Shown: piece after piece, positions 6,745-53,818 of the stretch | How the letters are laid out: every line of letters begins with the position of its first letter | How positions within the stretch are numbered: position 1 is the stretch's first letter | Origin: an uncultured virus (IMG/VR IMGVR_UViG_3300011474_000007) | Lineage: Duplodnaviria; Heunggongvirae; Uroviricota; Caudoviricetes | Direction: 5' to 3' (one strand) | Length of the DNA: 64,000 bases | IMG/VR virus record: IMGVR_UViG_3300011474_000007 | Location: 62,001-126,000 of that record | Translations under genes and position numbers: made by a program | The notes under the pieces: generated by a model | The model's input: the letters and a program-made list of their open reading frames with translations, nothing else | What the model was told of the DNA's origin: nothing | Database searches by the model: none

Positions 6745-6802
6745 AGATATATTTACCCTAAATAATATAAAGAATTTATAAAATTTAAGGAGGAAAACAA
6801 AT

Positions 6803-7351: not shown

Positions 7352-7399
7352 AACAAAATAATTTTAAAATTAACAGGGAATTTAAGGAGGAAAATAAAT

Positions 7400-8395: not shown

Positions 8396-8409
8396 TATAA
8401 AATAATTTG

Positions 8410-8442
8410 GAAGGTTAGAATAAATACTAGCCTTCTTATTTT
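8410..8442 (+). terminator. Intrinsic terminator after the major capsid gene
   Basis: GAAGGTTAG...CTAGCCTTC stem followed by TTATTTT. Confidence 0.65.
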
Positions 8443-8470
8443 AATATTTTGAAAGGAGAAATTTTAAAGA

Positions 8471-9022
8471 ATGGCAACAAAAAAAGATGAAGTAAAAGAA
8501 ACAAAGCAAGTAAAGGAAACTAAAGAAGTAAAAAAAGAAGAAATTAGAGAAGCTGAAAAGAAGAAAGAACTAAAGATACCCAATAGAGATGAAATGATAT
8601 TATGTAGAAGTGTAGTAATAGGTGGTTTAACATATGTATCTGAAAGAAGTAAAGCGACATGGCGTTTTGATGATTATGGTTCAGAACAATATATTGAATA
8701 TGGAGAATTATTAAATATGAAAGCATCTAATCCAGATTTTCTATTTAAACCTTGGTTAGTAATAGATGACAATTCTGCCGCGATAAAATATTTAGGATTA
8801 GAAAGTCTTTATAATTCAATTGTACCTATAGAAGATTTAGAAGGATTCTTTAGACAACCTTTAGATGAAATATCTGAAAAATTAGAAAAACTTCCTTTGG
8901 GTGCAAGAAATATATTAGCTTCAAAAGCTAGAAAAATGATTGAAAGCAGAGAGTTATATGATATTAGAATTATAGAATTGTTAGAAAAGAAATTACAATT
9001 AGATTTAAGTGTGGTTGAATAA
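8471..9022 (+). CDS. Hypothetical head-module protein
   Basis: 183-aa ORF with RBS; position after the capsid gene. Confidence 0.65.
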   Translation: MATKKDEVKETKQVKETKEVKKEEIREAEKKKELKIPNRDEMILCRSVVIGGLTYVSERSKATWRFDDYGSEQYIEYGELLNMKASNPDFLFKPWLVIDDNSAAIKYLGLESLYNSIVPIEDLEGFFRQPLDEISEKLEKLPLGARNILASKARKMIESRELYDIRIIELLEKKLQLDLSVVE

Positions 9023-15201: not shown

Positions 15202-16662
15202 ATGGCTAAATCAAAAACTCCAAGTTATACTTTAACATTACCATTAAAAATTGAACCTTATCAAGAATATATCTTAAATAAAAGATTTGAGAAGTGCAGA
15301 AAAATGTATAATTCCTGTTTAGGGGAAGCTCTTAAAAGATATAATCATATGATTGAATCTAAACAATATAAGAAGATCAAAAAAGTTAAAGATGAAAAAT
15401 TAAGAAATAAAAGATATGAAGAGTGTAATGAAGAGTATGGTTTAACTAAGAAATCATTTCAAAAATTTGTAAATTCTATGTATAACTATTTTGGATTAGA
15501 AAGCAAAACAGCACAAAATCAATCTCATAAAGCTTTTGCTACTATTCAAAAGTTAATGTTTCATAAAGCTAAAAGAGTTAATTTTATTAAATATAATGAA
15601 TTAATCTCAGTACAAGCTTTAGATAATAGACAAGGAGTGACTTATCGAGATGGTTATATTGTTTGGATGAAAACTAAATTTCCAGTAATAATTAAAAATA
15701 ATGACTTATATGCACAAAAAGCTATTCAAGATAGAGTTAAACTTTGTAGGATATTAAAAAAAGAAATAAAAGGTAAAACTAAATTTTATGCTCAATTAAT
15801 CCTAGAAGGTATACCACCTAAAAAAAATAATAAAGAAATTGGTGAAGTTAAAGGACGAACAGGAAATGGTAAAGTTGGTATTGATATTGGAACGAGAACT
15901 ATTGCTATATCAAGCAAATATGATGTTAAATTATTAGAGTTAGCACCTAATATTAATAATATAGATAAAGAAATTAAATTAATTCAACGTAAAATGGATA
16001 GATCAAAAAGAAGTATGAATCCTAGTAAATTCAATGAAGATGGAACTATTAAAAGAGGTAATAGAGATAGGTGGATATATAGCAATAAATATTTAAAAGC
16101 TAAGGCATTAAGAAAAGAACTATTTAGAAAACAAACTGAATTGAGGAAGCAAGACCATTATAATATGATTAATTGGTTGTTAGCTTTGGGCAATAAATTT
16201 TATGTTGAAGATATGAATTATCAAGGATTACAGAAACGTGTTAAGAAAACTACTATAAATGAAGAAACTAAGAGGTTTAATAAAAAGAAAAGATTTGGTA
16301 AGAGTTTAGCAAACAAAGCACCAAGTATGTTTTTAACTATGTTAGACAATAAATTAAAATATAACGATGAAAAATTGTATAAGATAGACACAAAGAAATG
16401 TAAATGTAGTCAATATAATCATTTTACAGATGAATTTAGCAAAAAAGAACTAAAAGATAGATGGAATAAAGACATAGTGATACAAAGAGATATGTATAGT
16501 TCATTTTTAATAATGAATGTAAATGAAGACTTAAAGAGTGTTAATAGGGAAAAATGTATTGAAACATATGATAATTTTAAAACATTACATGATAAGGAAA
16601 TAAATAGATTAAGAGAGTTAAAGAAAAATGGACATAAATTAATATCTAGTATGGGGATATAA
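15202..16662 (+). CDS. tnpB: TnpB-family RNA-guided endonuclease
   Basis: RuvC-I VGIDIG, RuvC-II YVEDM, RuvC-III QRDMYS; N-terminal R-x-x-YN helix; degenerate Zn ribbon. Confidence 0.85.
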   Translation: MAKSKTPSYTLTLPLKIEPYQEYILNKRFEKCRKMYNSCLGEALKRYNHMIESKQYKKIKKVKDEKLRNKRYEECNEEYGLTKKSFQKFVNSMYNYFGLESKTAQNQSHKAFATIQKLMFHKAKRVNFIKYNELISVQALDNRQGVTYRDGYIVWMKTKFPVIIKNNDLYAQKAIQDRVKLCRILKKEIKGKTKFYAQLILEGIPPKKNNKEIGEVKGRTGNGKVGIDIGTRTIAISSKYDVKLLELAPNINNIDKEIKLIQRKMDRSKRSMNPSKFNEDGTIKRGNRDRWIYSNKYLKAKALRKELFRKQTELRKQDHYNMINWLLALGNKFYVEDMNYQGLQKRVKKTTINEETKRFNKKKRFGKSLANKAPSMFLTMLDNKLKYNDEKLYKIDTKKCKCSQYNHFTDEFSKKELKDRWNKDIVIQRDMYSSFLIMNVNEDLKSVNREKCIETYDNFKTLHDKEINRLRELKKNGHKLISSMGI

Positions 16663-16877: not shown

Positions 16878-17009
16878 ATAGTGCCAAAAGGGGATTTCAA
16901 TAATGTAGTTGAAAAGTTGGAAACTCCAAGATTAACTAAAGAAGATTTAGATGCATGTAAAAGAATTGCTAATTTATATAAGAAACCATGTAAAAATAAT
17001 TTGAAATAA
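16858..17009 (+). pseudogene. Small antitoxin-like ORF whose 5' end appears displaced by the IS insertion
   Basis: Open frame NNIFEFIVPKGDF...LYKKPCKNNLK begins at the IS right end; the track's ATG (16776) lies inside the omegaRNA region. Confidence 0.4.
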
Positions 17010-17058
17010 TTTGAAAAAGAAAAAGAGCTGTCAAAAGATTAAGAAGGAGGATATGTAG

Positions 17059-17244
17059 ATGCCTACAATATCATTTGATAGAGATATTATTTTAAACGAA
17101 CAAGCTGGTGATAAATTGTTGGATATGTTATCAGAAGAAAGAAAAGAAAGAAAAGAAAAAATAGAAATTGAAGATATAGATATAGGAAGGAAGTTAGCTA
17201 GAGGCAAGGAATTATTAGAATCTTTAATTAGGAGGGAGATATGA
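17059..17244 (+). CDS. Small antitoxin-like protein (61 aa)
   Basis: AAGGAGG RBS; MPTISFDRDIIL N-terminus resembles small partners of GNAT toxins (recognition by eye). Confidence 0.55.
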   Translation: MPTISFDRDIILNEQAGDKLLDMLSEERKERKEKIEIEDIDIGRKLARGKELLESLIRREI

Positions 17245-17441
17245 AAAAGATAATAGATTTCACAACATACTCTCAAAATATAAGAACACAAATAGAGTCA
17301 TATTCCTTATTAGATATGATTATTGACTCAAAAAAGAGAAAAGAAGTCTATGATTATTATGATAAAAACTATCAATCTACTCCAGAAGAAGATGATATAT
17401 GCACTGAAATGAGAGGAAAATATAAGAAGGAAGATTATTAG
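17241..17441 (+). CDS. Small hypothetical protein (66 aa)
   Basis: AGGAGG RBS; ATGA overlap with previous ORF. Confidence 0.6.
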   Translation: MKKIIDFTTYSQNIRTQIESYSLLDMIIDSKKRKEVYDYYDKNYQSTPEEDDICTEMRGKYKKEDY

Positions 17442-17452
17442 GAGGCTTTATT

Positions 17453-17614
17453 GTGAAAAAAATAAGTCAACGACCTAATAACGTATTAAAATCTATAGAG
17501 ATAAGTTCTAAAGAAATACAAGATTTTAAGAAGAGCAAGAAAAAATTCAAATCATTAAAAGAATCTCAACAATTATGGGATAAATGGGTAGAAGAATCAG
17601 AAGATGAGGTATGA
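17453..17614 (+). CDS. Small antitoxin-like protein (53 aa, not in ORF track)
   Basis: AGGAGG RBS then GTG; MKKISQRPNNVLKSIEISSKEIQDFKKSKKKFKSLKESQQLWDKWVEESEDEV; resembles 18302-18460. Confidence 0.6.
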   Translation: MKKISQRPNNVLKSIEISSKEIQDFKKSKKKFKSLKESQQLWDKWVEESEDEV

Positions 17615-17617
17615 TCT

Positions 17618-17869
17618 ATGAGTGACAGATTATCTGAGTTACAAAAAGAATTGCATAATAATCTATATAAGGCTACTGTGGCTGCTGAAGAAAATACTAA
17701 AAGAAATGAAATAGGACAGGTAGTATTCTCAGAGGACGATGAAAAAGATTATGAATGTGAATGGGATGCTATTGCAGGTATATTTAATAATATTGTCAAG
17801 AAGAAGGGCTTGACTAAAGAACAAGTTAAGGACATAGTCAATAATATCAAACAGGAGATAAAGGAGTAA
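17618..17869 (+). CDS. Small antitoxin-like protein (83 aa)
   Basis: GAGGT RBS; KRNEIGQVVFSEDD...EWD motif shared with 17874-18077. Confidence 0.55.
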   Translation: MSDRLSELQKELHNNLYKATVAAEENTKRNEIGQVVFSEDDEKDYECEWDAIAGIFNNIVKKKGLTKEQVKDIVNNIKQEIKE

Positions 17870-17873
17870 TAAT

Positions 17874-18077
17874 ATGTATATAAAAAGATGGATGTGGTGT
17901 AGTCAATCATTCCCGTTCACAAAAGATAAGAAAAAGATGTACATTAGAGATAATAAAGTAAAACTAAAAGATCTATTAATGAAAGATATAAGAACTGATG
18001 ATAAAGGTAGAGCTTTATTAACTAAAGATGATGAATGGATAAAAGAAAAGGAATGGGATGAGTTATATAGAGAATAA
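17874..18077 (+). CDS. Small antitoxin-like protein (67 aa)
   Basis: AAGGAG RBS; RTDDKGRALLTKDDEW..EKEWDELY acidic/Trp C-terminus. Confidence 0.55.
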   Translation: MYIKRWMWCSQSFPFTKDKKKMYIRDNKVKLKDLLMKDIRTDDKGRALLTKDDEWIKEKEWDELYRE

Positions 18078-18096
18078 AAAAGGGGAAAATTTAAAA

Positions 18097-18240
18097 ATGA
18101 CGACACAAATAGCTGCAACATCAACATTATACGGAGAAGAAGCAAAAAAGATTATTATGGAAGCAAAGACTACACCAAGCGAAAAATTTAAAGAAAATGG
18201 TAAAAAATTAATAAAATATTTTGAGAAATTCAAGGGCTAA
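18097..18240 (+). CDS. Small antitoxin-like protein (47 aa)
   Basis: AGGGG RBS before ATG 18097; MTTQIAATSTLYGEEAKK resembles small partners of GNAT toxins. Confidence 0.55.
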   Translation: MTTQIAATSTLYGEEAKKIIMEAKTTPSEKFKENGKKLIKYFEKFKG

Positions 18241-18301
18241 GCAGGAATATAAGTAAGTATAGTTTAGTATTGTAAAAAGTTATTAAAGAAGGATGATAAT
18301 T

Positions 18302-18460
18302 ATGAGAAATATAGTTCAGAGATACTGTCTTGTTTCCGAATCTCTTGAGGAAAGTTTAAAACAAATGAAAGCTATCCGAAGTGGAAAAATTAAAAAAAAG
18401 ACATGGAAAGAATTTAAAAGAGAACTTCAAGAAGAAGATGGAGTGAAAAATCATGGATAA
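18302..18460 (+). CDS. Small antitoxin-like protein (52 aa, not in ORF track)
   Basis: AAGGATG RBS; ESLEESLKQMKAIRSGKIKKKTWKEF resembles C-termini of RelE/ParE-associated antitoxins. Confidence 0.55.
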   Translation: MRNIVQRYCLVSESLEESLKQMKAIRSGKIKKKTWKEFKRELQEEDGVKNHG

Positions 18461-18620
18461 AGTGAATAAGAACATTATGGAGAAATTTTTTGGTATCGAT
18501 GACATATAGCCAATAAAGCTAACCTCATCAGATACAATGGATAAAAATAAGAAAGGTGATTGCTTTGCAGATTGGTATGAAGAAGAACTTGCAGAAAAGT
18601 ATAGGGAATATAATAAGTGA
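18453..18620 (+). pseudogene. Small ORF with an in-frame premature TAG
   Basis: GGAGTG RBS, ATG 18453, TAG at 18507-18509; frame stays open to TGA 18620. Confidence 0.45.
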
Positions 18621-18626
18621 ACTAAG

Positions 18627-18833
18627 ATGTATAACCCATCAAAATTTTATTATAAATATTTCGTACTAGGAGTGATGAATGCTGTGAAAAGATCACTAAA
18701 TATTAACAAATTAGCAACAAAAAATATGACTACTATGTCGTCAAAAGAGGCATTAAAAGATGTTATACCTTTTCAATGGAGTGCAGAAGTACTAAATGGT
18801 AATAAAAATATTATTGTTATAAAAGGTAGGTAG
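18627..18833 (+). CDS. Small antitoxin-like protein
   Basis: AGGAG at ~18668 suggests a later start (GTG 18684); MSSKEALKDVIPFQWS motif. Confidence 0.5.
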   Translation: MYNPSKFYYKYFVLGVMNAVKRSLNINKLATKNMTTMSSKEALKDVIPFQWSAEVLNGNKNIIVIKGR

Positions 18834-18838
18834 ATTCA

Positions 18839-18961
18839 ATGATGGGAAAAAATATCTCAGTCAAAGATAACACAAAAGTTAGCATTAAAGATAAAAGTTT
18901 CACCGATATTATTAAGTGTGGTAAAAAATTAAAAGAAATCGTTGAAAAGGAAGGTTTGTAA
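18839..18961 (+). CDS. Small hypothetical protein (40 aa, not in ORF track)
   Basis: AGGTAGG RBS; C-terminus LKEIVEKEGL resembles FNNIVKKKGL of 17618-17869. Confidence 0.4.
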   Translation: MMGKNISVKDNTKVSIKDKSFTDIIKCGKKLKEIVEKEGL

Positions 18962-19202
18962 AGTAATACATGTCTTTAATAATATGATTCGCTAAAATTC
19001 TCAACAAAACTTTGTATTTTAATATACAATTTATAACTTTTAATAGCTATTCTGTCCGTATTTTTGGTACGAATTATCATCAAGTATATACCAATTTATG
19101 GTAATATATAAATATACTAATTATTTATTATATATAAACGAAATAGATTATAAGCATATTTATTAAATATTATATTTTTATTAAAGAATATTTTGTAAAA
19201 TA

Positions 19203-19231
19203 TTGATATTTTGTACTGGGAGTGGTAAAAT
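19203..19231 (+). promoter_or_regulatory. Sigma-A-type promoter of the GNAT toxin-antitoxin pair
   Basis: TTGATA-17bp-TAAAAT with extended -10 TG. Confidence 0.55.
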
Positions 19232-19313
19232 TATGAATATAAAGAAATGGACAGGCTGTGAAAAGGCAAGGGTGTATACAGCTAAAATAGTTAAAAATAA
19301 GGGGGAAGGACAT

Positions 19314-19466
19314 ATGGCAGTATCTAAAGCATATTTATCTTGTTTAGATGAGGAGGCTACTCAATTATTTAAAAAAGATATAGAATCTGCTAATTTAACA
19401 CTCACTGTAGCAAAAAAGGGGTTAGAATTATTTAAAAAACTAACTTGTGACGAAAGAGATAGCTAA
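19314..19466 (+). CDS. Putative antitoxin of the GNAT toxin (50 aa)
   Basis: GGGGAAGGA RBS before ATG 19314; small ORF 1 nt upstream of the GNAT gene. Confidence 0.55.
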   Translation: MAVSKAYLSCLDEEATQLFKKDIESANLTLTVAKKGLELFKKLTCDERDS

Positions 19467-19467
19467 T

Positions 19468-20016
19468 ATGAAATTTTTTGAAGAAAAGCTGGATGAGGAT
19501 AAACACTTTAAAGAAATTAGTGATTTTGTATGTGGTGAAAATGAATCATTGGAAATATTTTTAAAATGTCATGCAATAAAATATCATAATAACTCTCAAG
19601 GTATGACTTACATAATAAAAATGGATAATAAAATTATTGCTTTTTATACATTAAAATGTAATGCTGTTCAAGTTAAAGATACTAATGGTAAAGAGTGTAT
19701 ACCTATGGTTGAATTAGCTCGACTTGCAGTAGATTCAGATTATCAATGTAAAGGCTATGGTACAGTAATATTTCTTGGATATATGCTACCTAAAATTTTG
19801 CATGTAAGGGATCTAGTAGCAGCAAAAGCCATTATGGTGTTTGTTGAAAAAGAAGATCAAAACGCTATTAATTTCTACAAAAAAATAGGTTTTAAGATGG
19901 CTGATGAAAAAGTTCAAAATCATATAGAGGAATGGTATTCTGAGGGATGTAGTATTATGGTATTGAATTTAGATACAGCAGAAGAAATATTAAGGCAAAT
20001 ACAAGAAGTAAATTGA
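19468..20016 (+). CDS. GNAT acetyltransferase, AtaT/TacT-like toxin type
   Basis: FxCG..LxxFL N-terminus, LARLAVDSDYQCKGYG acetyl-CoA motif, AINFYKKIGF. Confidence 0.8.
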   Translation: MKFFEEKLDEDKHFKEISDFVCGENESLEIFLKCHAIKYHNNSQGMTYIIKMDNKIIAFYTLKCNAVQVKDTNGKECIPMVELARLAVDSDYQCKGYGTVIFLGYMLPKILHVRDLVAAKAIMVFVEKEDQNAINFYKKIGFKMADEKVQNHIEEWYSEGCSIMVLNLDTAEEILRQIQEVN

Positions 20017-20017
20017 A

Positions 20018-20055
20018 GACTCTTAAATATTAAATTATTTAGGAGTTTTTATTTT
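20018..20055 (+). terminator. Intrinsic terminator after the GNAT gene
   Basis: ACTCTTAAATA...TATTTAGGAGT stem followed by T-run. Confidence 0.6.
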
Positions 20056-20266
20056 GCTTAAAATTAAGAAATAAAGATATATTCATAATGTCTTTTTATT
20101 TTATAAATTATAGTTACATATACATAATTATGTTAACTAAATTTAAAGTAAACTTTGAAAGGAGGATTTTTAAATGGGTTTAAGTATTTAAACCTTGTTT
20201 ATAGGGAGAAGCATAAGCACGTAATAATGTGGACAATGCCAAGGAAAGATTTCATATGAATTAATC
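20041..20266 (+). repeat. Degenerate duplicate of the tape-measure 5' region joined to an intron-3 5' remnant
   Basis: 20041-20204 resembles 20787-20941 (RBS and first codons, stop at codon 6); 20206-20266 resembles 24886-24966. Confidence 0.7.
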
Positions 20267-20282
20267 TCAATAATCATAAATA

Positions 20283-20750
20283 TTGTATGAAACTCCAATA
20301 TATGATAAAATTATACAAGAAAGACTATGGAATTGGAGGCATTTTTATGAAAAAAATAAGTTTTTAAAAGCGGTATTATTATGTTTAAGTATTATTTTTT
20401 GTTTAGGATTGTTTGTAGGGTGTGAATCCGCAGAAGAAGCAGGAATGAGACAATTTAAAGAAGAACAGGAGGAAGCTAAAAAACCTGAAAATAAGAAAAA
20501 GAGCATATATTATGGTGTTCAGAAAGAAGTTAAAAATAAATTAAAAGCACCATCTACCGCGGAATTTCCTATATATGATGAATCTTTTGTTGAACAGGTT
20601 GACGATACACATTATACGGTTAATTGTTATGTAGATGCTGAAAATGGTTTCGGTGCAAAACTTCGTTCTAACTATAGTTGTGATATAGAGTATGAATATG
20701 AAGATGATAGTTCTTATACTATAAAAAATCTTATAATAGATCAAAATTAA
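20283..20750 (+). CDS. Lipoprotein, paralog of the intron-3 cargo; natural start ATG 20347 is frameshifted by an A7 run
   Basis: Lipobox LFVGC; KLKAPSTAEFP...YVDAENGFGA; GGAGG RBS at 20335; A7 after ATG versus A8 in the paralog; the track's TTG start coincides with the -35 box. Confidence 0.65.
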   Translation: MYETPIYDKIIQERLWNWRHFYEKNKFLKAVLLCLSIIFCLGLFVGCESAEEAGMRQFKEEQEEAKKPENKKKSIYYGVQKEVKNKLKAPSTAEFPIYDESFVEQVDDTHYTVNCYVDAENGFGAKLRSNYSCDIEYEYEDDSSYTIKNLIIDQN

Positions 20751-20767
20751 AGAAAATATAGTGTAAA

Positions 20768-20803
20768 AGCTTCTAACAGAATAGTTAGGAGTTTTTTATT
20801 TTT
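20768..20803 (+). terminator. Intrinsic terminator after the lipoprotein gene
   Basis: GCTTCTAAC...GTTAGGAGT stem followed by T-run. Confidence 0.6.
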
Positions 20804-20912: not shown

Positions 20913-22379
20913 ATGGCTTTAAGTATTCAAACCTCGTTTACACTGGAAGATTTTAATAGCTTAAATACTAAAGTCCAAAATCTTTTAAAACAAGTAAGTG
21001 AATCAAGTAAAATAAAACTAGATTTTTCAGATGGAATGTCATTAGATAAGATGCAACAACAAATAAATAAATTACAGCAGGAAATTATCAATGCTAGTAA
21101 ACAGTCAAGTAAAGCTGTTGCATCGTCATTTAGTAAAACAAATTCACAGTTTGAACAACAAATAAAAAATATAGAAAAATACTTAAAAACATTAGGCTCT
21201 AATGTAAATGTAAAAGCAATAACAAATGATTATGGTGGAATAACTGGTGCAATTGCTAAGTATAAAAATGAAGCAGGTAAGGTTATAGAAAAGAATTATG
21301 AATTAGGTGAGTCATTAAAAAAGGTTGATAAGGATGGAAAATACGTTCAGAAATTAAAACTAGTTAATGATTCAACTCTGAAAGATCAAGAGAAAATTAT
21401 ACAATTACTTGAAAAAGAAAGAAAAAAAATAGAGGAAGTTACAGGTGCTATAGCTAAATTAAAAACTCATAAAGATGGTAAAGGAATATTAAGAAGTGCA
21501 AGTATAAGTTATAGTGATGATGATAATAAAAAAATTCAGCAATTATATAAAATAAAAGATAATATTCAGGCTAAGGAAAATACTATAAATAAAGGTTTGT
21601 CTTTTGAAAGAACAGGAACTAATACTATAGATGATATAAAACAAAGTATAAAAACTTTGGAACAATATCAGAAAGCTATAGATAGACTCAACGAGAAGAA
21701 TATAAGTTTAGGTGATGGAAGTCAAAGTCAATTGTTTATTAAGAATCTTCAAGAGGCGCAAACATTAATAGATAGGACAAAATCTTCTGGTGAATCTATG
21801 AGCAGAAGTATCCAAAAGAATATTGATATTTTAATTAGAAAAATGAATCTGGAAAATAAGACAATTAAGCAAACAAGCGATGAAATGAAAAAGAAACAAA
21901 AAATAATGAAAGATGCTCCTGTAGCAATACAAAGCTATGAGAATAAAATAAACAAATTAAAAAATACATATGGAAAATTGGTTAAAGAAGCTAATTTGTC
22001 AAAGTTAAGGAAAGAAATGGCTAAGTTAGCTCATTCAAAAGATCCTGAAGAGTATTCTAGACAATTAAAAATCATAAAAAATGAATATGATAAATTAGAG
22101 AATTCTGTAAATGGTAGTAGTAAAAAAGGTAAGAATGGAATTTTATCGACTATTGGTGAAGCTATAACTAAAATACCTGTTTTGATAAGTGCAGCTGATG
22201 CTTGGATGGAAGCTATTAACAAGGTCAAAGAAGGGGTTAGTTTCATAGCTGATTTAGATAAAGCTCAGACCAATATCTCAATGATAACAGGTATGAATAA
22301 AAGCCAAGTTTCTGATTTAACTGATGAATATAGTAAACTAGCAGGGGAGTTACATACGACTACCAAAGAAATGATGGGT
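20913..22379 (+). CDS. Tail tape measure protein, exon 1
   Basis: AAGGAGG RBS; helical ORF entering a TP901-type core (LDKAQTNISMITG); ends in GGT at the predicted 5' splice site. Confidence 0.85.
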
Positions 22380-22691
22380 GAATAAAGCACTATCGCCCAT
22401 ATAAAACCTCGTGAACCTATAAATATAGGGTGTGCATTTAACATTAAGTTCAAATAGGAAATGATTTGTTAATAAATGTGCTAACAGGGAAAGAGAAATC
22501 TAATCCTGTGCGAAATTATATTTATTTTTAAATATATAATCGTCAAACGACTATCGAAACCATAGCTATAGTGTAAATAGGATTGCTATAGTGAGTAAGG
22601 AAGTAGAGTACATTTAAGGTGAAATTCCTTATTTGGAAGTGCGAGGGCTTAACCTAATAAGCATGATATAGTCTATTAATAATTATTAATG
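22380..22691 (+). ncRNA. Group I intron 1 (no ORF, 312 nt)
   Basis: P1 AUGGGU/GCCCAU with U-G at the splice site; P3 22407-22412/22641-22646; P7 GACUA (22549)/UAGUC (22669); P9 hairpin; terminal G 22691; P10 GCACU/GGUGC. Confidence 0.9.
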
Positions 22692-23077
22692 GGTGCAGAA
22701 GAATTCCTTAGAGCCGGTAGGAGCGTTGAAGAAACTAAAGGATTATTAAAAGCTTCAACTATAGGTGCAGCAATATCTGGACAAAGTAATGAGGCTGTAT
22801 CTGAACAATTAATTGCAATAACTAACGGTTTCAGTAACATGGTTGCAAAAGCACAGAAAGAAGGAAAAAGTTATGAGAGCGTTGTAATGCATGTTATAGA
22901 TACTATTTCAACATTAGATAATGCTTCTGCTACTTCATTCCAAGAAGTGGCAACTGCCATGATGAGAACATCATCTTCAGCACAAATGGCAGGAGTAAGC
23001 TTTGAGACTTTAGCGTCTTATGTAGCTACAGTTAGTGCTACAACAAGGCGGTCTAGCGAAAGCATTGGTGAATCCTT
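22692..23077 (+). CDS. Tail tape measure protein, exon 2
   Basis: GAEEFLRAG...VIDTISTLDN...SIGESF tape-measure core motifs; in frame after splicing. Confidence 0.85.
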
Positions 23078-23191
23078 TAATGGTGGAGGCTTAGTGGCAT
23101 AATACATAAACCACTATAGAAAATTTTCTCTAATATACGGCGAAACTCCAGAGATGGACAACGCCTTGGAAGACAATTAATATAAAATAAT

Positions 23192-23219
23192 TTGACAAAA
23201 TAAGAAAAAGTGTTAAAAT
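23192..23219 (+). promoter_or_regulatory. Internal promoter for the intron endonuclease
   Basis: TTGACA-16bp-TAAAAT with extended -10 TG. Confidence 0.6.
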
Positions 23220-23270
23220 AAAGATAGTTAATATAAAATAATTTAAAAAAGTAAGAAAGGCGGATCTATT

Positions 23271-24389
23271 GTGTATAAAATAAAAAAGGATAACCCCACA
23301 CAATTTAAGATATCATCTGATGAATCTTATTGGATAGGTATAACATCAAAAGGAGATGAGTTTTTCTTTAATGGAGATAATGATGTAATATCATATGTAA
23401 AATCTTGCAATTGGAGAAAAAGAAAAGATGGATATTTTCAAAACTATAAAGGAGAAAGGATAAATAGGGTTGTAGCTAAAGTTATTGATTCTTCTTATGT
23501 AGTAGACCATATAAATAACAATCCTTCAGACAATAGGGTTCAGAATCTAAGAGTAATAACGAGAGCGAAGAACACTAGAAATAAATCCACTAATAAAACA
23601 CATGGTATAGTAGGGTTATATAAAAAAGGTAATAAGTATTATGGAATATTAATGGTCGAAGGTATCAATATTTGTACAAAATTTAAAAATAAAAATGAAG
23701 CTTTAATAGATTTATTAATAGCACAAAAACATTTTGGATATTTGCATAATGAAAACTTATATTATTTAATAGAAAACATAGATAAAAAAACACAATGTAA
23801 AGTAATTGAATGTGTGGAAGAAAAATTAAAAAAATATAAGGCTAGAAAGCCAAAAAAAAATAAATATATTTTATCAGAGGACGGTAAATATTATGTAGTT
23901 TTATGTAATGAAATTGATAATAAAAATAGTTTTAAAATATCTGTAGAAGATAAAGAACTGGTTGAAGAATATTGTTGGAGTATGCATAAATTAAAAAATA
24001 ACAAATATTATATTCATCAATCAAAAGGAGGATGTTTTTATATTCATAGATATTTATATGGGTTGAGAGATGAAAAATATATGAATTATTATGTTGACCA
24101 TATAAATGGAGATAGTTTAGATAATAGAAGAGAGAACTTGATTATCACAGATAAAAAAGGCAATAATACAAATATAATAAGTAAAAAAGGGTATCATAAA
24201 ACAAAAAATGGAAAATATCGAGCTGCCATATCTATAGGAGAATATAATAATAGGTTGTCAAAGGTATGTGATATAGAAGAAGAAGCTAGAAAATGGTATC
24301 TTGATAAAAAACAAGAACAAATGAAAAAAAGAAAGACATGGAAAAGTAAAGAAGAATTAGATTTATATTTATTATCAAAAACAGGTTAG
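23271..24389 (+). CDS. HNH homing endonuclease with two HNH plus AP2-like units
   Basis: VDHINNNPSDNRVQNL and VDHINGDSLDNRRENL motifs, each followed by an AP2-like segment. Confidence 0.85.
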   Translation: MYKIKKDNPTQFKISSDESYWIGITSKGDEFFFNGDNDVISYVKSCNWRKRKDGYFQNYKGERINRVVAKVIDSSYVVDHINNNPSDNRVQNLRVITRAKNTRNKSTNKTHGIVGLYKKGNKYYGILMVEGINICTKFKNKNEALIDLLIAQKHFGYLHNENLYYLIENIDKKTQCKVIECVEEKLKKYKARKPKKNKYILSEDGKYYVVLCNEIDNKNSFKISVEDKELVEEYCWSMHKLKNNKYYIHQSKGGCFYIHRYLYGLRDEKYMNYYVDHINGDSLDNRRENLIITDKKGNNTNIISKKGYHKTKNGKYRAAISIGEYNNRLSKVCDIEEEARKWYLDKKQEQMKKRKTWKSKEELDLYLLSKTG

Positions 24390-24627
24390 TTTTAACACTT
24401 CTAATTTGTTTTTATTTGTTAATTGTCACCAACAACGACTTAACGAGAAAAGTTTATTTTTTATAAGATAAACATGTACAAGTCTAAACGTCACGCTATA
24501 ATCTAATAATGAAACGTGAGAATTTTGGTCGGTGTGAAATAATCACCTAAAGAAGTACCAAAATCGCTATAACAGAATAATTTGTTATAGTCAGTAGCTT
24601 GTTTTTGCAAGTGAAAGTAATAGTAAG

Positions 24628-24850
24628 CAAAACCATATTTGCTAGATTCCAAGATATAAAACAAGGTGTAGATGTCCAAGATGGAGGAAGCATATCTAAT
24701 GTTGAAGAATCGCTAAACAAAGTTGGAATAGCAATAAGAAAAGATAAGACTCATTTTAAGGAATTTTCACAAATTGTTGATGAACTTAAACCGAAATGGA
24801 AGGAATTGGATGATTTATCTAAAGCCGATATCTCTAAAAGTCTGGCAGGT
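24628..24850 (+). CDS. Tail tape measure protein, exon 3
   Basis: KTIFARFQD...VEESLNKVGI...IVDELKPKW...SLAG motifs; in frame after splicing. Confidence 0.85.
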
Positions 24851-25010
24851 AAAATATGTGCCTGAGTATACAGTAATGTATACCTGAGAAGCAAACCATA
24901 TCGGGGGAACCCTGACCATGTAATGATGAAGGCAATCCCGAGGAAAGATTTTATGTGAATTAATTTGATAAAATTATATATTTATAATTATATTTTAATA
25001 ATCATAAATA

Positions 25011-25039
25011 TTGTATAAAACTCCAAAATATGATAAAAT
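25011..25039 (+). promoter_or_regulatory. Promoter of the intron-borne lipoprotein gene
   Basis: TTGTAT-17bp-TAAAAT with extended -10 TG; conserved in the copy at 20283-20311. Confidence 0.6.
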
Positions 25040-25074
25040 CATAATAGCAAAGCTATGGAATTGGAGGCATTTTT

Positions 25075-25437
25075 ATGAAAAAAAATAAGTTTTTAAAAAC
25101 GGTATTATTATGTGTAAGTATTATTTTTTGTTTAGGAATTTTTGTTGGTTGTAGCGAATCAGAAGAAGATAAAGCTAGAGCATATAAGTTTGGCATTTAT
25201 AAAAATACAACAAAACTAATAGAAGGTAAGTTAAAATCTCCATCAACAGCTAAATTTCAAGAGTTCGATGAAAAGTTGGTTAAAGATTTAGGTGGAAATC
25301 AATATAAAGTTTCAGGATATGTCGATTCTGAGAACGGGTTTGGTGCAAATATTCGTTCTAATTGGCATTGTACTGTTACAATAGAAGGAGAAGGAGAAGA
25401 TAAAACAATTGAAAGTAATGATATAGTTATTGAATAA
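25075..25437 (+). CDS. Lipoprotein of unknown function encoded inside intron 3
   Basis: Signal peptide with lipobox IFVGC; KLKSPSTAKF...GYVDSENGFGA; GGAGG RBS. Confidence 0.8.
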   Translation: MKKNKFLKTVLLCVSIIFCLGIFVGCSESEEDKARAYKFGIYKNTTKLIEGKLKSPSTAKFQEFDEKLVKDLGGNQYKVSGYVDSENGFGANIRSNWHCTVTIEGEGEDKTIESNDIVIE

Positions 25438-25458
25438 AATATATAATATATACGTCTT

Positions 25459-25497
25459 AAACTCTTAACAAGTTAAAGTTAAGAGTTTTTATTTTTT
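25459..25497 (+). terminator. Intrinsic terminator inside intron 3
   Basis: AAACTCTTAAC...GTTAAGAGTTT stem followed by TTATTTTTT. Confidence 0.65.
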
Positions 25498-25708
25498 AAA
25501 AAATTAATTCATATAGAATATCCGTAACGACTAGTACGTTTGCCATCCTATATAAATAATAGGATGAACATAGAGTCTAAACTATATGGAAACATATAGA
25601 GAAGTGGTCGGTGTGAAATAATCACCTAAAGAAGTACCATTTCCGCTATAGCAAAATAATTTGTTATAGTCAGTAGCCTTGTTATTATAGGTGAAAGTAA
25701 TAGAGTTG

Positions 25709-28700
25709 ACAGATCAAAGGGAAAACTTTTTGGTTTTAATGAATAATTTAGAAACAACAAGTGATTTATTACAAAAAGTAAAAGAATCAGCAGGCAATTC
25801 TAAAATAAAATTTGATGATAATGCTAGTGAATCTCTTGATGCAAAAGTTAAAAATTTTAAACATGCTTGGGAAGAACTCTATAGGACTTTAATCTCTAGT
25901 GATGCTTTAAAAGCAATAGTAGCAACAGGAACAAAATTAATAGGTGTTCTAGATACAATTGTTAATTCAAGTAAAGGAGTTAAATTAAGCTTTTTAGTAT
26001 TACTTCCTATAATTTTACATATGGTTAAAAATTTTAAACTTTTGATGTTAACAATAATGTCAGGAGAAAAAATAAAATTAGTTGATGTGATTTTTGGAGA
26101 TTTATTTGGCAGAATGTCAAGTGGTATCACAATTGTAGATAGACTCAAAAGTTCATTTAAGGTTCTTAAGTTAGCACTATCTTCATTATTAACAACGCCA
26201 CAAGGTTTAATGTTTTTAGCTGTAGCAACAGCAATAGGTGTAGCAACAGCGGCAGTAATTAAACATGCAAACCATCAAAAGAAACTAAGAGAAGAGAATG
26301 ACAAACTAAAGCAAAGTTATGATGATTTGAAGGCTGCAATGTCATCAAATGACAAAGAAGGTATAAAAAATGCTTCAGAAAATCCACAAAAAGCACAAAG
26401 TGAACTCCAAGAATTGATAAAGAAAAGAGCAAAACTAAATAAGGAAATGGAAAGCGCACCTACTATGAGAGAGGGCGCAACTATACATATTAATTCACAA
26501 TTTAAAGAAACTGAACAAAGAATAAAAGAAATAACCAAAGCTCTCAAAGATAATGGTTACACAGTTGATGAAATCACTGGAAAGGTAAAAGAATTAACGG
26601 AAGCTAGTTTAAGAGCAACAAATCTTGATATGATAGATACTATTAAAGAAACAGGAGAGTCTGAAATAAAGAATAAAGATTCTATTGTGGAATTAGGAGA
26701 TGAATATTTTAGATTAGCTTCGATTCAAAATAAAAATAAAGAAGTAAACCAAAAGTTAACCGATGTCTCAAATGAGCTAAATGGTAAAGTGAAAGGGCTA
26801 ATTGTAACAAAGGATAAGGATGGAAATGTAACAGTTAAAAATACTGGTTTGTTAGCTAAGGAGATAGAAGTCCTTCAAACAGAGGGATTAACTGTAAATA
26901 AGCTAACTCAAATTAAGTTAGAAGCTGGAAAAAGTTCAGCAGAAGTTCAAATCGGTATGACAAAGGTTACTTACCAAGAAGCAAGAAGAAGAATGCAAAT
27001 ATTAGATGAAGAAGCAAAGACCTTAGAAAAAGTTAGTAATCTAACTGATCCAAATGGTACTATGGAAAAAATTACTGGAATGAAAAATCCATTTGGAAAA
27101 GCATATGATTTTAATAGAAGTGAAGCAGCAGAAATAAAAAGTCAAATTGAGGCTATAGATAAAATATATAATGAAGCAAAATCTTCACTTGATGACTTAC
27201 CAGACAAAAATTCTGTACCAAATTTTGCACCTAATCCTGATGAAACAAAGAAAAGTACAGAAGCTACAAAAGAAAACACAGGGGAGACAGACAAGAATAG
27301 AGAAGCCGTAAATAAAGCTAGAGAATCCATAAAACAATATGAATTAGCATTAAAATCACTAGAAATGCAAATGACAAAAAATAATATTGCACTAGGAAGA
27401 CTTTACGAACATAGTGATAGTTATATAAATAAACTAAAAGAAAAACAAAATTTAATTAAACAAGAAATTGCATTAAATAAACAACAAATAGCTACTAATG
27501 GAAAATTAGCTAATTCATTAGGCGCAGTAGGTGGAAGTTATGCAAGTGGTATGGGTAATAGTATTGGTGAACAAGTTGTAAGAAATGCACAACAATATTT
27601 AGGAAGACCATATAAATGGGGAGGAAGTAGCCCAGCTGAAAATTTTGACTGTTCTGGATTAGTTCAATATGTATATAAGCAAGTAGGAATTTCCTTGAAT
27701 AGGACTACATATGACCAAGTAAAACAAGGAACAGCTGTATCTAAAAATCAATTACAAGTAGGCGATGCTGTTTTCTTCGGTAGCCCATCAGCACCACATC
27801 ATGTAGGAATATATATGGGGAATGGAAAGTATATACATTCACCAAAAACAGGTGATGTTATAAAAGTTTCTAACTTAAATAGTAGAAGTGATTATGCTAC
27901 TGCCAGAAGGTATGCAAGTGGAGGAAGTAGTTATCGAACAACTTCATCTAATTATAGTGGAAAATATGCTAGTTATATAAATGACGCAGCTAGTAAATAT
28001 GGTGTATCTTCTGCTTTAATTGCAGCAATCATAAAAGCAGAATCAGATTTTAATCCTAATGCTCGTTCTAATGAAGGAGCTATGGGACTAATGCAACTTA
28101 TGCCAGTTAATGTAAGAGAATTTGGAGTAAGAAATCCTTATGACCCACAACAAAGTATTATGGGTGGAACACAAGAAATATCTAAATACTTAAAGAAATA
28201 TAATGGTAATTTAGATTTAGCTTTAGCCGCTTATAATGCAGGTATGGGTAGTGTAGCTAAAGCGGGTGGAGTCCCAAATTACACCAAGGATTATATATCC
28301 AAAGTTAAAAAGTACATGAAAGGCTATGGTGGAAGCGAATCCTCTATCCATTCAACAATAGATGAACAAATGGACTTAATTGGAAAGTCAATGGATTTAG
28401 AAAAGAAAAACCTTGAACTCCAAGAAGAATTAAACAAGATAAATATTCAAATTCTTGAAGCCAAATTGGGTCAATATGATGATAGAGTTAAATCCATTGA
28501 TAGAACGTTAACTCAATTAAGAACAGATGTTGATTTAGCAGGAAAGAATGATACAACATATATAAATTACTTGTTAAGAATAGATGAATATAGTAATAAG
28601 AAACTTAATACTTTGAAAGAAAAAAGAGCATTTTTAGAAAAAGAAATGAAATCTAATATTTATGACGCAAAAACTTTACAAATGATGCGAGAAAAGAATT

Positions 28701-30877
28701 CAGATTTAGGTACCGAAATGCTTAATATGTTAAAAAGTATTAAAGAATTAGGATATGAAATAGCTACAGCAAGATATGAAGCCGTACAACAAATTTATAA
28801 AGACAATATTGAACTACTTAATAATGAATTAGAACGGCTTTCAACTGAAGAAAATAAAAATCTTAAATCAATGATTGCTTTAAGACAACAAATGATTGGA
28901 CAAGATGAAGAAAATATTAAAAGATTGACTAATCTAATAAAAGAATTAAATGCAGAATCTTATAAGGGTAATAAACCTTACTTATTAGATAAAATAGAGG
29001 AATACACTAAAGAATTAGATAGAGCAAATACGGAATTGACTAAACACAAGAAAGAACTTGAAAGCGTAAAAGATACTTTTAATAGTTTAATAGAATCTAT
29101 AGAAGATAAAGTTAAACAAGCCATTCAAAAAGTCAATGAAGAATACAAGAAAAATTCAGAGAAAAGAAGAAAGCTATTTGATGAAGCTATTGATAAGCAA
29201 GTAGAAAAAATAGAAGAAGCCCGAAGAAAGCTCGATAAAAACGAAACCGCACAGAATGATTATGAAAAAATTATGGAGATTCAAGAAAAGATAAATAGAC
29301 TTGATTTAAATGATTCCATAGAAGCAAAAAAACAAAGATCTGAATTAGAAAAAGAATTAAGAAATGCACAAAAAGACCAACGTTCTCATGAATTGAATTA
29401 TGAAATTGAAGAAAGAAAGAAAAGACTAACTAATGCAAAAGATGAATACGGAAAACTTAGTAGTGAATATGACAATAAATTAAGTGAAAGTTTTGAAGAT
29501 GATAAGCTGACTCTTGAAGCTAAACAAGCTTTACTAAATGGCTTTATTGTTGATTTGAATGGAAATGTTATTAACTTAGAAAAAGCATTAACTACATTAG
29601 AAGATAAGACAGGAAAAGGATTAAGCAGCACAGGTAATAAAATAAAAAAAGAATTAATTGATAATTTACATACAGTACAAGATATATTAAAAGAATTTGG
29701 AACTTTAGATACTACAAAAATAGAGTTTCAAAAGAAACCAATTATCAATGTATATGGTGCTGGAATAGACATAGAAAATGCTAAAAACATATTAGGAATA
29801 GATGGATATAACTACATTGATACAAAGATGATAGACCATAGTAAAATCAAATTAGGAGAAAATGATATAGTTCTAGGTGCAAAAGGCACTCATAATGGTA
29901 TTAGTAGAGATGATTTAGGTGGTGCTACTAGGTTGGGTGGCAGCAACAGATATGATACTGCCGCTATTATTCAATTATATAAAGATATACAAGATGGTAA
30001 AGTAACTCCAGTAAATGGAGTGGTGTATGGTAGTGGGCAAGATTTAGAGAATGCAATGAAATGGTTAGCTCCTTTAGGTTATAAGTTTGTTGATACAAGT
30101 AAAATAAACCCTAGAACAATTAGATTTACTCAAAACGACTTAATAGTTGGAGGAACTGGCGCTAGAGGTGGCGTTCCTTTTGATGTTAACGGTGTTAAAA
30201 GATTAGGTGGAATAACAAGATTTGATACAGATAAAATCATAGGAGATTATGCAAAAGCACAATTAGAAACAAGAATAAATGAAGCTTACCGTCAAACAGA
30301 TAAAAGAGTTGGTAGAGTATATGGAACAGGTATAGATTTAATAAATGCTAAGAAATATTTAAGTAAACAAGGATATGATTTTGTTGATACCGATTCTGTA
30401 ATTGATAAAGTTTTAAGCACAAATGATATTGTTGTAGGCGGTCAAATGAAAGGCAAGGAAAATATCTATAATAGCGGTGCTAGATGGCTATACGGAAAAG
30501 ATAGACATGAAACTGCTAACTTGATAAATGAATTTGCTAGATATAATAACATTAGAGGGTTTAGTACAGGCGGCGTGGTAGATTATACAGGTCTGGCAAT
30601 GGTTCATGGTAGCAACAATCCTGAATTAGTATTAAATAATCAACAAGTAGTACAATTACATAACTTTATTAAAGGACTTCCAAACACTGCTTATAATCCT
30701 AATATGAGAAGATTTGGGAATTCAAGTGTAAAAAATATTAGTAACAAGAATACAGAATCTAATCAAGTATATAATCAGTATGATATAAAACTAATAGTTG
30801 AGGGTAATTTACAAGGAAATGAAAGAGAAGCTAATATGTTTGCCAATAAGATAGTAGATATAATGAAAAGAAAATAA
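25709..30877 (+). CDS. Tail tape measure protein, exon 4 (NlpC/P60 peptidase, lytic transglycosylase, three CWB2-like repeats)
   Basis: YKWGG...FDCSGL...HVGIY (NlpC/P60); KAESDFNPNA...GAMGLMQLMP...AAYNAG (SLT); hydrophobic helices; RLGGxxR(Y/F)DT repeats. Confidence 0.9.
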   Translation, partial: TDQRENFLVLMNNLETTSDLLQKVKESAGNSKIKFDDNASESLDAKVKNFKHAWEELYRTLISSDALKAIVATGTKLIGVLDTIVNSSKGVKLSFLVLLPIILHMVKNFKLLMLTIMSGEKIKLVDVIFGDLFGRMSSGITIVDRLKSSFKVLKLALSSLLTTPQGLMFLAVATAIGVATAAVIKHANHQKKLREENDKLKQSYDDLKAAMSSNDKEGIKNASENPQKAQSELQELIKKRAKLNKEMESAPTMREGATIHINSQFKETEQRIKEITKALKDNGYTVDEITGKVKELTEASLRATNLDMIDTIKETGESEIKNKDSIVELGDEYFRLASIQNKNKEVNQKLTDVSNELNGKVKGLIVTKDKDGNVTVKNTGLLAKEIEVLQTEGLTVNKLTQIKLEAGKSSAEVQIGMTKVTYQEARRRMQILDEEAKTLEKVSNLTDPNGTMEKITGMKNPFGKAYDFNRSEAAEIKSQIEAIDKIYNEAKSSLDDLPDKNSVPNFAPNPDETKKSTEATKENTGETDKNREAVNKARESIKQYELALKSLEMQMTKNNIALGRLYEHSDSYINKLKEKQNLIKQEIALNKQQIATNGKLANSLGAVGGSYASGMGNSIGEQVVRNAQQYLGRPYKWGGSSPAENFDCSGLVQYVYKQVGISLNRTTYDQVKQGTAVSKNQLQVGDAVFFGSPSAPHHVGIYMGNGKYIHSPKTGDVIKVSNLNSRSDYATARRYASGGSSYRTTSSNYSGKYASYINDAASKYGVSSALIAAIIKAESDFNPNARSNEGAMGLMQLMPVNVREFGVRNPYDPQQSIMGGTQEISKYLKKYNGNLDLALAAYNAGMGSVAKAGGVPNYTKDYISKVKKYMKGYGGSESSIHSTIDEQMDLIGKSMDLEKKNLELQEELNKINIQILEAKLGQYDDRVKSIDRTLTQLRTDVDLAGKNDTTYINYLLRIDEYSNKKLNTLKEKRAFLEKEMKSNIYDAKTLQMMREKNSDLGTEMLNMLKSIKELGYEIATARYEAVQQIYKDNIELLNNELERLSTEENKNLKSMIALRQQMIGQDEENIKRLTNLIKELNAESYKGNKPYLLDKIEEYTKELDRANTELTKHKKELESVKDTFNSLIESIEDKVKQAIQKVNEEYKKNSEKRRKLFDEAIDKQVEKIEEARRKLDKNETAQNDYEKIMEIQEKINRLDLNDSIEAKKQRSELEKELRNAQKDQRSHELNYEIEERKKRLTNAKDEYGKLSSEYDNKLSESFEDDKLTLEAKQALLNGFIVDLNGNVINLEKALTTLEDKTGKGLSSTGNKIKKELIDNLHTVQDILKEFGTLDTTKIEFQKKPIINVYGAGIDIENAKNILGIDGYNYIDTKMIDHSKIKLGENDIVLGAKGTHNGISRDDLGGATRLGGSNRYDTAAIIQLYKDIQDGKVTPVNGVVYGSGQDLENAMKWLAPLGYKFVDTSKINPRTIRFTQNDLIVGGTGARGGVPFDVNGVKRLGGITRFDTDKIIGDYAKAQLETRINEAYRQTDKRVGRVYGTGIDLINAKKYLSKQGYDFVDTDSVIDKVLSTNDIVVGGQMKGKENIYNSGARWLYGKDRHETANLINEFARYNNIRGFSTGGVVDYTGLAMVHGSNNPELVLNNQQVVQLHNFIKGLPNTAYNPNMRRFGNSSVKNISNKNTESNQVYNQYDIKLIVEGNLQGNEREANMFANKIVDIMKRK

Positions 30878-52406: not shown

Positions 52407-52419
52407 GGGGTGATACAAG

Positions 52420-53766: not shown

Positions 53767-53818
53767 TAAATACCTATTTTAAATAATATAATTTTAAAAA
53801 TAGATTGGAAGTGATTAA

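What the first reader, a model, noticed from the sequence alone, without database searches (positions are those of the whole stretch)
20913..30877. Tape measure gene interrupted by three group I introns
Seen: four exons (20913-22379, 22692-23077, 24628-24850, 25709-30877) join in frame to 7245 nt, or 2414 aa. Junctions read KEMMG|GAEEF, GESF|KTIFAR and SLAG|TDQRENF. Each intron has a U-G P1, P3, P7, P10 and a terminal G. All three lie within about 610 nt of the conserved core. Known: phage group I introns are mostly described in DNA-metabolism genes and less often in structural genes. Inference: tail assembly needs three splicing events, and annotation pipelines will report fragments.
Basis: partly seen in the sequence, partly recalled or inferred. 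Interest (0 to 1): 0.8.

Follow-up and report, generated by a model that had tools for sequence, protein, structure and literature searches.

The report
Tail-gene intron carries swappable lipoprotein
The tail-length gene of this large Clostridium phage is split by three introns that are predicted to cut themselves out of the RNA, a layout already proven in another phage, but here the third intron carries a small surface-lipoprotein gene where its relatives carry a predicted DNA-cutting mobility gene, so the intron likely serves as a parking place for an accessory gene.

Summary
The four exons join to 7245 nt / 2414 aa. 16 of 25 homologues are contiguous across all three junctions. Close relatives lack intron 1 (P0001) or intron 2 (L003-L009) at exactly these sites. 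Each intron has a U-G P1, core helices and a terminal G, and P3/P4/P7 show compensatory changes. Splicing itself is not shown here. The headline is not new: Vibrio phage ICP1 TMP has four exons and three introns, confirmed by RT-PCR (PMC10448857), and B. cereus-group prophage TMPs carry group I introns at three sites (PMC2504315). Close homologues of the gene stand free upstream of TMP in relatives. A second allele sits in intron 3 of a divergent phage. I found no such cargo in print, but this scan has logged similar cases elsewhere. Closest named relatives are C. botulinum phage-plasmids. Verdict: new variant of a known kind, interest 0.5.

The parts
20913..22379 (+). TMP exon 1 (489 codons)
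   Evidence: P0001 is contiguous from here into exon 2
22380..22691 (+). Intron 1, 312 nt, no ORF; has P3.1, P7.1 and P7.2 (IA2-like layout, subclass name recalled)
   Evidence: helices; fold z -3.2; orthologue in L003-L009, absent in P0001-P0003
22692..23077 (+). TMP exon 2 (PhageMin_Tail core)
   Evidence: PF10145, E 1e-11
23078..24627 (+). Intron 2, 1550 nt, phase 2, no P7.1/P7.2; long P9 extension
   Evidence: absent in L003-L009; a form without the HNH gene is in run X3
23192..23219 (+). sigma70-like promoter match (11/12, TG extension) before the HNH gene
   Evidence: matches overall are at chance level (43 found vs 38.5 expected)
23271..24389 (+). HNH endonuclease gene, 372 aa, two HNH stretches, in the P6a loop of intron 2
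   Evidence: PF13392, E 1e-15; phrog_99; P6a 23172-23180/24419-24427
24628..24850 (+). TMP exon 3
24851..25708 (+). Intron 3, 858 nt, cargo-bearing
   Evidence: orthologues L003 and L045 hold an endonuclease-type ORF in the same loop
24948..24973 (+). P6a 5' arm; pairs with 25494-25519 across the 520-nt cargo loop
   Evidence: I9; duplex -18.5 kcal/mol, 0 of 1000 shuffles as good
24965..24994 (+). promoter-like match (10/12) upstream of the lipoprotein gene
   Evidence: weak, chance-level scan
25075..25437 (+). Lipoprotein gene, 120 aa: GGAGG RBS, signal peptide, lipobox-like FVGC, predicted cystatin/NTF2-like domain
   Evidence: family of 12,669 representatives; no Pfam family
25459..25488 (+). 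Intrinsic-terminator-like hairpin plus U tract, homologous to terminators of the upstream accessory cluster in relatives
25494..25519 (+). P6a 3' arm
24526..24598 (+). P9.1-P9.2 extension of intron 2, 92% identical to 25605-25677 in intron 3
   Evidence: D4
25709..30877 (+). TMP exon 4, with NlpC/P60 (about 27600-27890) and SLT (about 27970-28270) domains
20154..20265 (+). Relic: copy of the TMP RBS/start (20154-20201) fused to a copy of intron-3 P4-P6 (20200-20265); no P7/P9 follows
   Evidence: D8 92%, D6 77%
20347..20750 (+). Second lipoprotein allele (49% aa identity to the intron cargo), frameshifted near its start in this record; terminator-like hairpin at 20765-20796
   Evidence: an uninterrupted allele is in run X2

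Best explanation
The tape-measure gene of this SPbeta-like Clostridium phage is interrupted by three insertions with group I intron anatomy that are predicted to self-splice from the late transcript, and the third carries a lipoprotein gene with its own terminator in the loop where its orthologues carry an endonuclease-type gene, likely a captured accessory gene (moron) that likely serves superinfection exclusion. Shown: exact boundaries, natural intron-minus alleles for introns 1 and 2, core helices with compensatory changes, and the cargo in L6a. Also shown: free-standing homologues of the cargo and its terminator upstream of TMP in relatives, and a second cargo allele in a divergent intron 3. 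Inferred: (1) the standard two-step guanosine-initiated splicing of each intron gives a 2414-aa TMP. (2) The HNH of intron 2 spreads intron 2 by homing and may carry the ORF-less intron 1, 386 nt away, by co-conversion. (3) A moron from the adjacent cluster replaced the homing gene in L6a, where a long P6a stem isolates it from the ribozyme core. (4) In the lysogen, host polymerase transcribes the cargo and stops at its terminator. In the lytic cycle the phage's YonO-type polymerase reads through, the intron folds and is excised. (5) The lipoprotein acts at the cell surface against related phages, and its alleles are exchanged by recombination in the conserved promoter/signal-peptide part.
For: In-frame join. 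Contiguous homologues, 16 of 25, and 17 of 34 loci with zero gap at all three sites. Nucleotide-exact empty site 2. Helices. P3 reads GCAAAC/GUUUGC in the window, GCGAAC/GUUCGC in L003 and GUUGGC/GCCAAC in an L034 intron; the fifth P7 pair varies U-A, A-U, G-C in site-2-like introns. P6a arms differ in sequence between the window, L003 and L045 yet pair in each. The L003 loop ORF carries the Pfam homing-endonuclease-associated repeat. Cargo DNA is 79% identical to free-standing genes in L004/L006/L008/L009, with no intron core around those copies in 6 of 6 loci tested. Run X3 (a different study from the likely source run) has a contig identical to 25361-25545, bridging ORF end, terminator and P7. 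It also has a divergent contig running from intron-3 P1 into the signal peptide and then into a different mature domain that reads like P0049. Accession order puts P0049 two entries behind the HNH fragment on a C. botulinum contig. RdRP-family (YonO-type) 874-aa gene with a DxDGD motif in the genome; YonO transcribes SPbeta late genes as one operon and pauses little (PMC5467207). Precedent for TMP-adjacent exclusion morons (HK97 gp15, PMC3594210) and for a TMP-targeting lipoprotein (Ltp, PMC3952083).
Against: No spliced RNA was observed. Rfam gives no group I hit. The fifth P7 pair of intron 3 is an A-G mismatch and P10 of intron 1 is weak. A sense-strand terminator inside intron 3 could truncate the late transcript, and read-through by a YonO-type enzyme is not documented in the passages read. 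Promoter matches are at chance level. The lipoprotein has no Pfam, PADLOC or named PHROG match and only generic cystatin/NTF2-type fold matches (best Z 8.6, to a designed protein), so its function is a guess by position and analogy. None of the 14 site-3 pattern hits in public collections carries the lipoprotein (one hit was false and two were truncated), so the cargo form is rare.
Confidence: 0.8

Rival explanations
1. The introns are real, but the lipoprotein is a neutral passenger: it fell into a tolerant loop by recombination between the adjacent moron cluster and intron 3, and has no exclusion role or link to TMP.
For: The moron cluster lies a few kb upstream and shares terminator and signal-peptide sequence. 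Most site-3 introns found carry an endonuclease-type ORF or nothing. The upstream paralogue is frameshifted in this record.
Against: Two intact alleles only 44% identical appear to occupy the same loop. The upstream relic kept the lipoprotein gene while almost all of a duplicated TMP/intron was lost. Both point to retention of the gene.
Confidence: 0.3
2. Gene in pieces: one or more introns are dead and TMP is made as separate polypeptides; exon 2 has an in-frame AUG at the end of intron 1 and exon 4 an in-frame GUG at 25691.
For: These in-frame starts exist. The terminator lies inside intron 3. There is no direct splicing data.
Against: The breaks cut through the conserved PhageMin_Tail core, and site 2 is phase 2. 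Ribozyme helices are intact and co-vary. Intron-minus relatives encode the same contiguous peptide. ICP1 TMP is spliced.
Confidence: 0.06
3. The lipoprotein inside intron 3 is a mis-assembly caused by the repeats shared with the upstream copy.
For: 115-nt and 74-nt repeats link 20255-20423 and 24983-25152. The exact protein is recorded on one contig only. No single contig spans the whole stretch.
Against: Contigs of runs X1, X3 and X5 bridge cargo or terminator to the 3' core, and an X3 contig bridges a divergent 5' core to a lipoprotein start. The P6a arms pair across the cargo.
Confidence: 0.03

Closest known systems
Vibrio phage ICP1 tape-measure gene (PMC10448857; section 21 read)
   Same: TMP in four exons and three introns, the middle intron with an HNH-3 endonuclease; loop content varies between isolates; splicing shown by RNA-seq and RT-PCR.
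   Different: Unrelated host. Only endonuclease cargo is reported in the section read. Here intron 3 carries a lipoprotein moron.
TMP-IVS1/2/3a/3b group I introns of Bacillus cereus-group prophages (PMC2504315; passages read)
   Same: Group I introns at three TMP positions in Firmicutes prophages; different cores at one site sharing P1 (here, the 371-nt site-3 intron of L004 vs the window's); endonuclease gain and loss.
   Different: In the passages read, the phages named carry up to two TMP introns each, and ORFs are endonucleases or their remains. Whether the sites are homologous to the ones here was not tested.
Multi-intron genes of Bastillevirinae and Twort orf142 (PMC11878797; passages and section 15 read)
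   Same: Two or three group I introns per gene; poor detection by RF00028; exon skipping reported.
   Different: DNA polymerase, terminase, RNR and tail tube genes; every loop protein tabulated is a nuclease.
Tail-operon morons and exclusion lipoproteins: HK97 gp15 (PMC3594210), Ltp of TP-J34 (PMC3952083); passages read
   Same: Own promoter and terminator; position by the TMP gene (gp15); surface lipoprotein (Ltp, which targets the TMP of incoming phage).
   Different: Those genes are free-standing, not intron-nested. The cargo here has no Pfam match and a predicted one-helix/beta-sheet fold.

Membership tests
Group I intron | U at the 5' splice site paired with G of the internal guide (P1) | tested here: met
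   for intron 2 the register is U23077-G23086, read from the sequence
Group I intron | terminal G | tested here: met
   all three
Group I intron | core P3, P4, P6, P7, P8 in order, with the P7 G-C guanosine site | tested here: met
   one A-G mismatch at the end of P7 in intron 3
Group I intron | compensatory change in core helices | tested here: met
   5 site-2-like and 4 site-3-like introns, hand-anchored, no formal statistic
Group I intron | exact empty-site alleles | tested here: met
Group I intron | match to the RF00028 covariance model | tested here: not met
   the model is known to miss phage introns (PMC11878797)
Group I intron | guanosine-dependent self-splicing | not testable with these tools
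   no splicing data
Moron | own RBS and terminator inside a late operon | tested here: met
Moron | own promoter | tested here: inconclusive
   10/12 match at 24965-24994, but the scan is at chance level
Moron | expression from the repressed prophage | not testable with these tools
   no expression data
Ltp-type superinfection-exclusion lipoprotein | sequence match to a curated Ltp family | tested here: not met
   no Pfam family at E<=0.01
Ltp-type superinfection-exclusion lipoprotein | Ltp repeat-domain fold (recalled as helical) | tested here: inconclusive
   model is one helix plus four strands, pLDDT 88.6; fold searches list cystatin/NTF2-like chains
Mobile (homing) intron, intron 2 | intact endonuclease ORF in a loop | tested here: met
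Mobile (homing) intron, intron 2 | cleavage of the empty allele | not testable with these tools
   none

The most novel reading that the evidence does not exclude
Intron 3 is a domesticated, allele-swappable cassette slot: it locks a superinfection-exclusion lipoprotein inside the very TMP allele it must be compatible with. Host polymerase makes the defence protein in the lysogen, and the phage's YonO-type polymerase reads through and splices the cassette away in the lytic cycle. The relic upstream records such a cassette being exported from the intron to the free moron cluster.
Probability: 0.3. Interest if true: 0.75.

Novelty: new variant of a known kind. Interest (0 to 1): 0.5.

Why it matters
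The three-intron TMP itself adds a Clostridium example to a known pattern and explains broken annotation of a whole group of about 200-kb phage-plasmids. The cargo matters more. Phage group I intron loops are described as holding nucleases or nothing. A loop that trades its homing gene for exchangeable surface-protein alleles would make introns safe insertion sites inside essential genes, invisible to Rfam and to gene callers. This locus is a good test case because natural relatives show several states of one intron: endonuclease, lipoprotein allele A, lipoprotein allele C, and an exported relic.

Tried and rejected
Rfam at gathering score and at E<=10: no group I hit, four chance matches. Genome-collection scans with exon 2 and with the site-3 pattern found nothing. 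Search of GenBank phages with exon 2 gave only about 33% identical TMPs. Sequencing-run search: no RNA holder listed, which says nothing about expression. One metagenome pattern hit (L053) is unrelated sequence and was dropped. Lipoprotein: no Pfam, PADLOC or solved-structure sequence match; ESM Atlas hits under 0.9 only; no PDB Foldseek hit at E<=0.001; Ltp was not listed among fold matches, which does not exclude it. The phage-structure library gave unnamed small phage lipoproteins (best TM 0.72). The promoter scan is at chance level. In-frame skipping of exons 2+3 (609 nt, 203 aa) is arithmetically possible and has a precedent in Twort, but it would remove the conserved core; not pursued. 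Literature searches for non-nuclease cargo in phage group I introns listed no such report. The library lacks most subscription papers. No supplements were opened; Table S1 of PMC11878797 (known split phage genes) could bear on this.
Full report
Setting. The window is part of a 157,535-nt virus record, 25.5% G+C, with terminase, portal/head, tail, TMP, Dit, YomG-like, amidase and holin genes in SPbeta-like order. The closest named proteins are from Clostridium botulinum (P0001, 99% identical over exon 2). The closest annotated records are circular elements of about 200 kb filed as C. botulinum plasmids. The host is therefore inferred to be the C. botulinum/C. sporogenes group.

Check of the observation. 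Boundaries were tested against natural empty alleles. All 25 homologues run through site 1, 16 of 25 run through all three sites, and 5 of 25 read into the start of an intron-2-type element. Of 34 related loci, 17 have zero gap at all three sites, 16 have insertions, and 1 was unresolved by tblastn but reads through. The seven closest loci have introns 1 and 3 and an empty site 2 that matches to the nucleotide, whereas P0001-P0003 lack intron 1 and have intron 2. The window thus combines introns that segregate among close relatives. Each intron follows a U, ends in G, and shows P1, P3, P4, P6, P7, P8 and P9. Compensatory changes appear in P3, P4 and P7 across 5 site-2-like and 4 site-3-like introns (hand-anchored, no formal statistic). 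Intron 1 and the 3' parts of introns 2 and 3 fold better than shuffles (z -3.2, -2.3, -3.3). Against: Rfam finds nothing, P10 of intron 1 is weak, and intron 3 has an A-G mismatch at the end of P7, shared with L003. Splicing was not observed.

What the loops hold. Intron 1 is ORF-less. Intron 2 holds a 372-aa HNH gene in L6a; a version without it exists in run X3. Intron 3 holds a 120-aa ORF with a GGAGG RBS, signal peptide and lipobox-like FVGC, followed by one of only two terminator-like sites in 6 kb. The 520-nt cargo is enclosed by 26-nt arms that pair at -18.5 kcal/mol, better than 1000 of 1000 shuffles and than any other 26-mer in the loop. The orthologous intron in L003 and L045 has an ORF of about 310-320 aa in the same loop; the L003 ORF carries a homing-endonuclease-associated repeat, and both are closed by arms of other sequence that also pair. 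The cargo gene is 79% identical in DNA to genes that stand free upstream of TMP in L004, L006, L008 and L009. Its terminator resembles terminators repeated in that accessory cluster, and no intron core flanks those copies in 6 of 6 loci tested. The direction 'moron entered the intron, replacing the endonuclease' is inferred from this.

Is the cargo real and recurrent? The exact protein is recorded on one contig, and none of the 14 site-3 pattern hits carries it, so it is rare. But contigs from runs X1 (possibly the source), X3 and X5 bridge the cargo or its terminator to the 3' core. X3 also holds a divergent contig that runs from intron-3 P1 into the signal peptide and on into a different mature domain whose first residues read like P0049. 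P0049 is 44% identical to the window's cargo, and its accession lies two entries behind the HNH fragment on a C. botulinum contig, while an 82% identical gene lies three entries before that contig's TMP. This order is indirect evidence; I did not see that DNA. Upstream of TMP in the window, a copy of the TMP start is fused to a copy of intron-3 P4-P6 and a third allele, with no P7 behind it. The simplest reading is a duplication that kept only the cargo.

The protein. It belongs to a very large unnamed family (12,669 representatives at E<=0.001) without Pfam or PADLOC match. The model (pLDDT 88.6) is one helix on a four-strand sheet, with generic cystatin/NTF2-type matches (best Z 8.6, rmsd 2.3, 73 aligned, a designed protein) and matches to small unnamed phage lipoproteins. 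The fold gives no function. Superinfection exclusion is my committed guess (about 40%), from surface location, allele diversity, position at the TMP gene, and the precedents of HK97 gp15 and Ltp (passages read).

How it likely works. The genome encodes a YonO-type polymerase. [quoted passage not shown] I infer that host polymerase makes a short cargo mRNA in the lysogen and stops at 25488, while the phage polymerase reads through in the lytic cycle, letting P6a close, the core fold and three excisions yield full-length TMP. Terminator read-through is an inference; the passages read do not test it.

Comparison with what is known. A TMP with four exons and three introns, the middle one with an HNH, is established by RNA-seq and RT-PCR in ICP1 (PMC10448857, section 21 read). 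Group I introns at three TMP sites are described in B. cereus-group prophages (PMC2504315, passages). Three introns per gene occur in Bastillevirinae, and all loop proteins tabulated there are nucleases (PMC11878797, section 15 and passages). Non-nuclease cargo in such introns was not found in five searches (open-licence papers only, no supplements opened). This scan's own unchecked notes list eight cargo-bearing TMP introns in other genomes. They are not evidence, but they make this an instance of a recurring pattern rather than a one-off.

Verdict. Observation confirmed; interpretation supported but not novel as stated. Three functional group I introns: about 0.92. The lipoprotein cargo inside intron 3 being genuine: about 0.95. 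The full mechanism as stated: 0.8 for splicing plus captured moron, lower for the exclusion role. Novelty: new variant of a known kind. Interest 0.5; 0.75 if the exclusion-cassette reading holds (probability about 0.3).

Noticed in passing
window 20154-20796: Relic of a duplicated TMP start fused directly to intron-3 P4-P6 and a second lipoprotein allele; it looks like a TMP duplication that lost everything but the cargo.
   Followed up: partly
window 24526-24627 and 25605-25708; also L033, L034, L035, L045, L048: A conserved 3' P9 extension ending in GUCAGUA...GAAAGUAA is shared by introns with different cores and sites; its AGUA/GAA part recalls a loop-E motif (recalled, untested).
   Followed up: no
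L021, L025, L030-L036, around locus positions 6200-8500: The TMP core is an intron hotspot in this phage family: 16 of 34 loci have insertions, and about seven further positions (approximate mapping) carry P7-type motifs; L034/L045 has three introns.
   Followed up: partly
L004 6613-6983 vs window 24851-25708: A different, ORF-less 371-nt intron core occupies site 3 with the same P1/P2 and 3' end, as with TMP-IVS3a/b in B. cereus.
   Followed up: partly
G000:C1 54431-57055 (outside the window): 874-aa RdRP-family gene with a DxDGD motif, a YonO-type phage RNA polymerase.
   Followed up: partly
window 17000-20020: Run of many very short ORFs ending in a small ORF overlapping a GNAT gene (19203-20016), like a toxin-antitoxin pair; relatives have HicA and PIN genes in the same slot.
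   Followed up: no
window 15202-16662: 486-aa transposase-family (phrog_506; TnpB-like by recall) gene inserted in the tail region.
   Followed up: no
G000:C1 near 17258 and 3730, minus strand: Two further P7-like motif pairs elsewhere in the genome; possibly more introns, possibly chance.
   Followed up: no
window 50505-54766: Kelch-repeat and SPRY-domain proteins among the distal tail genes.
   Followed up: no
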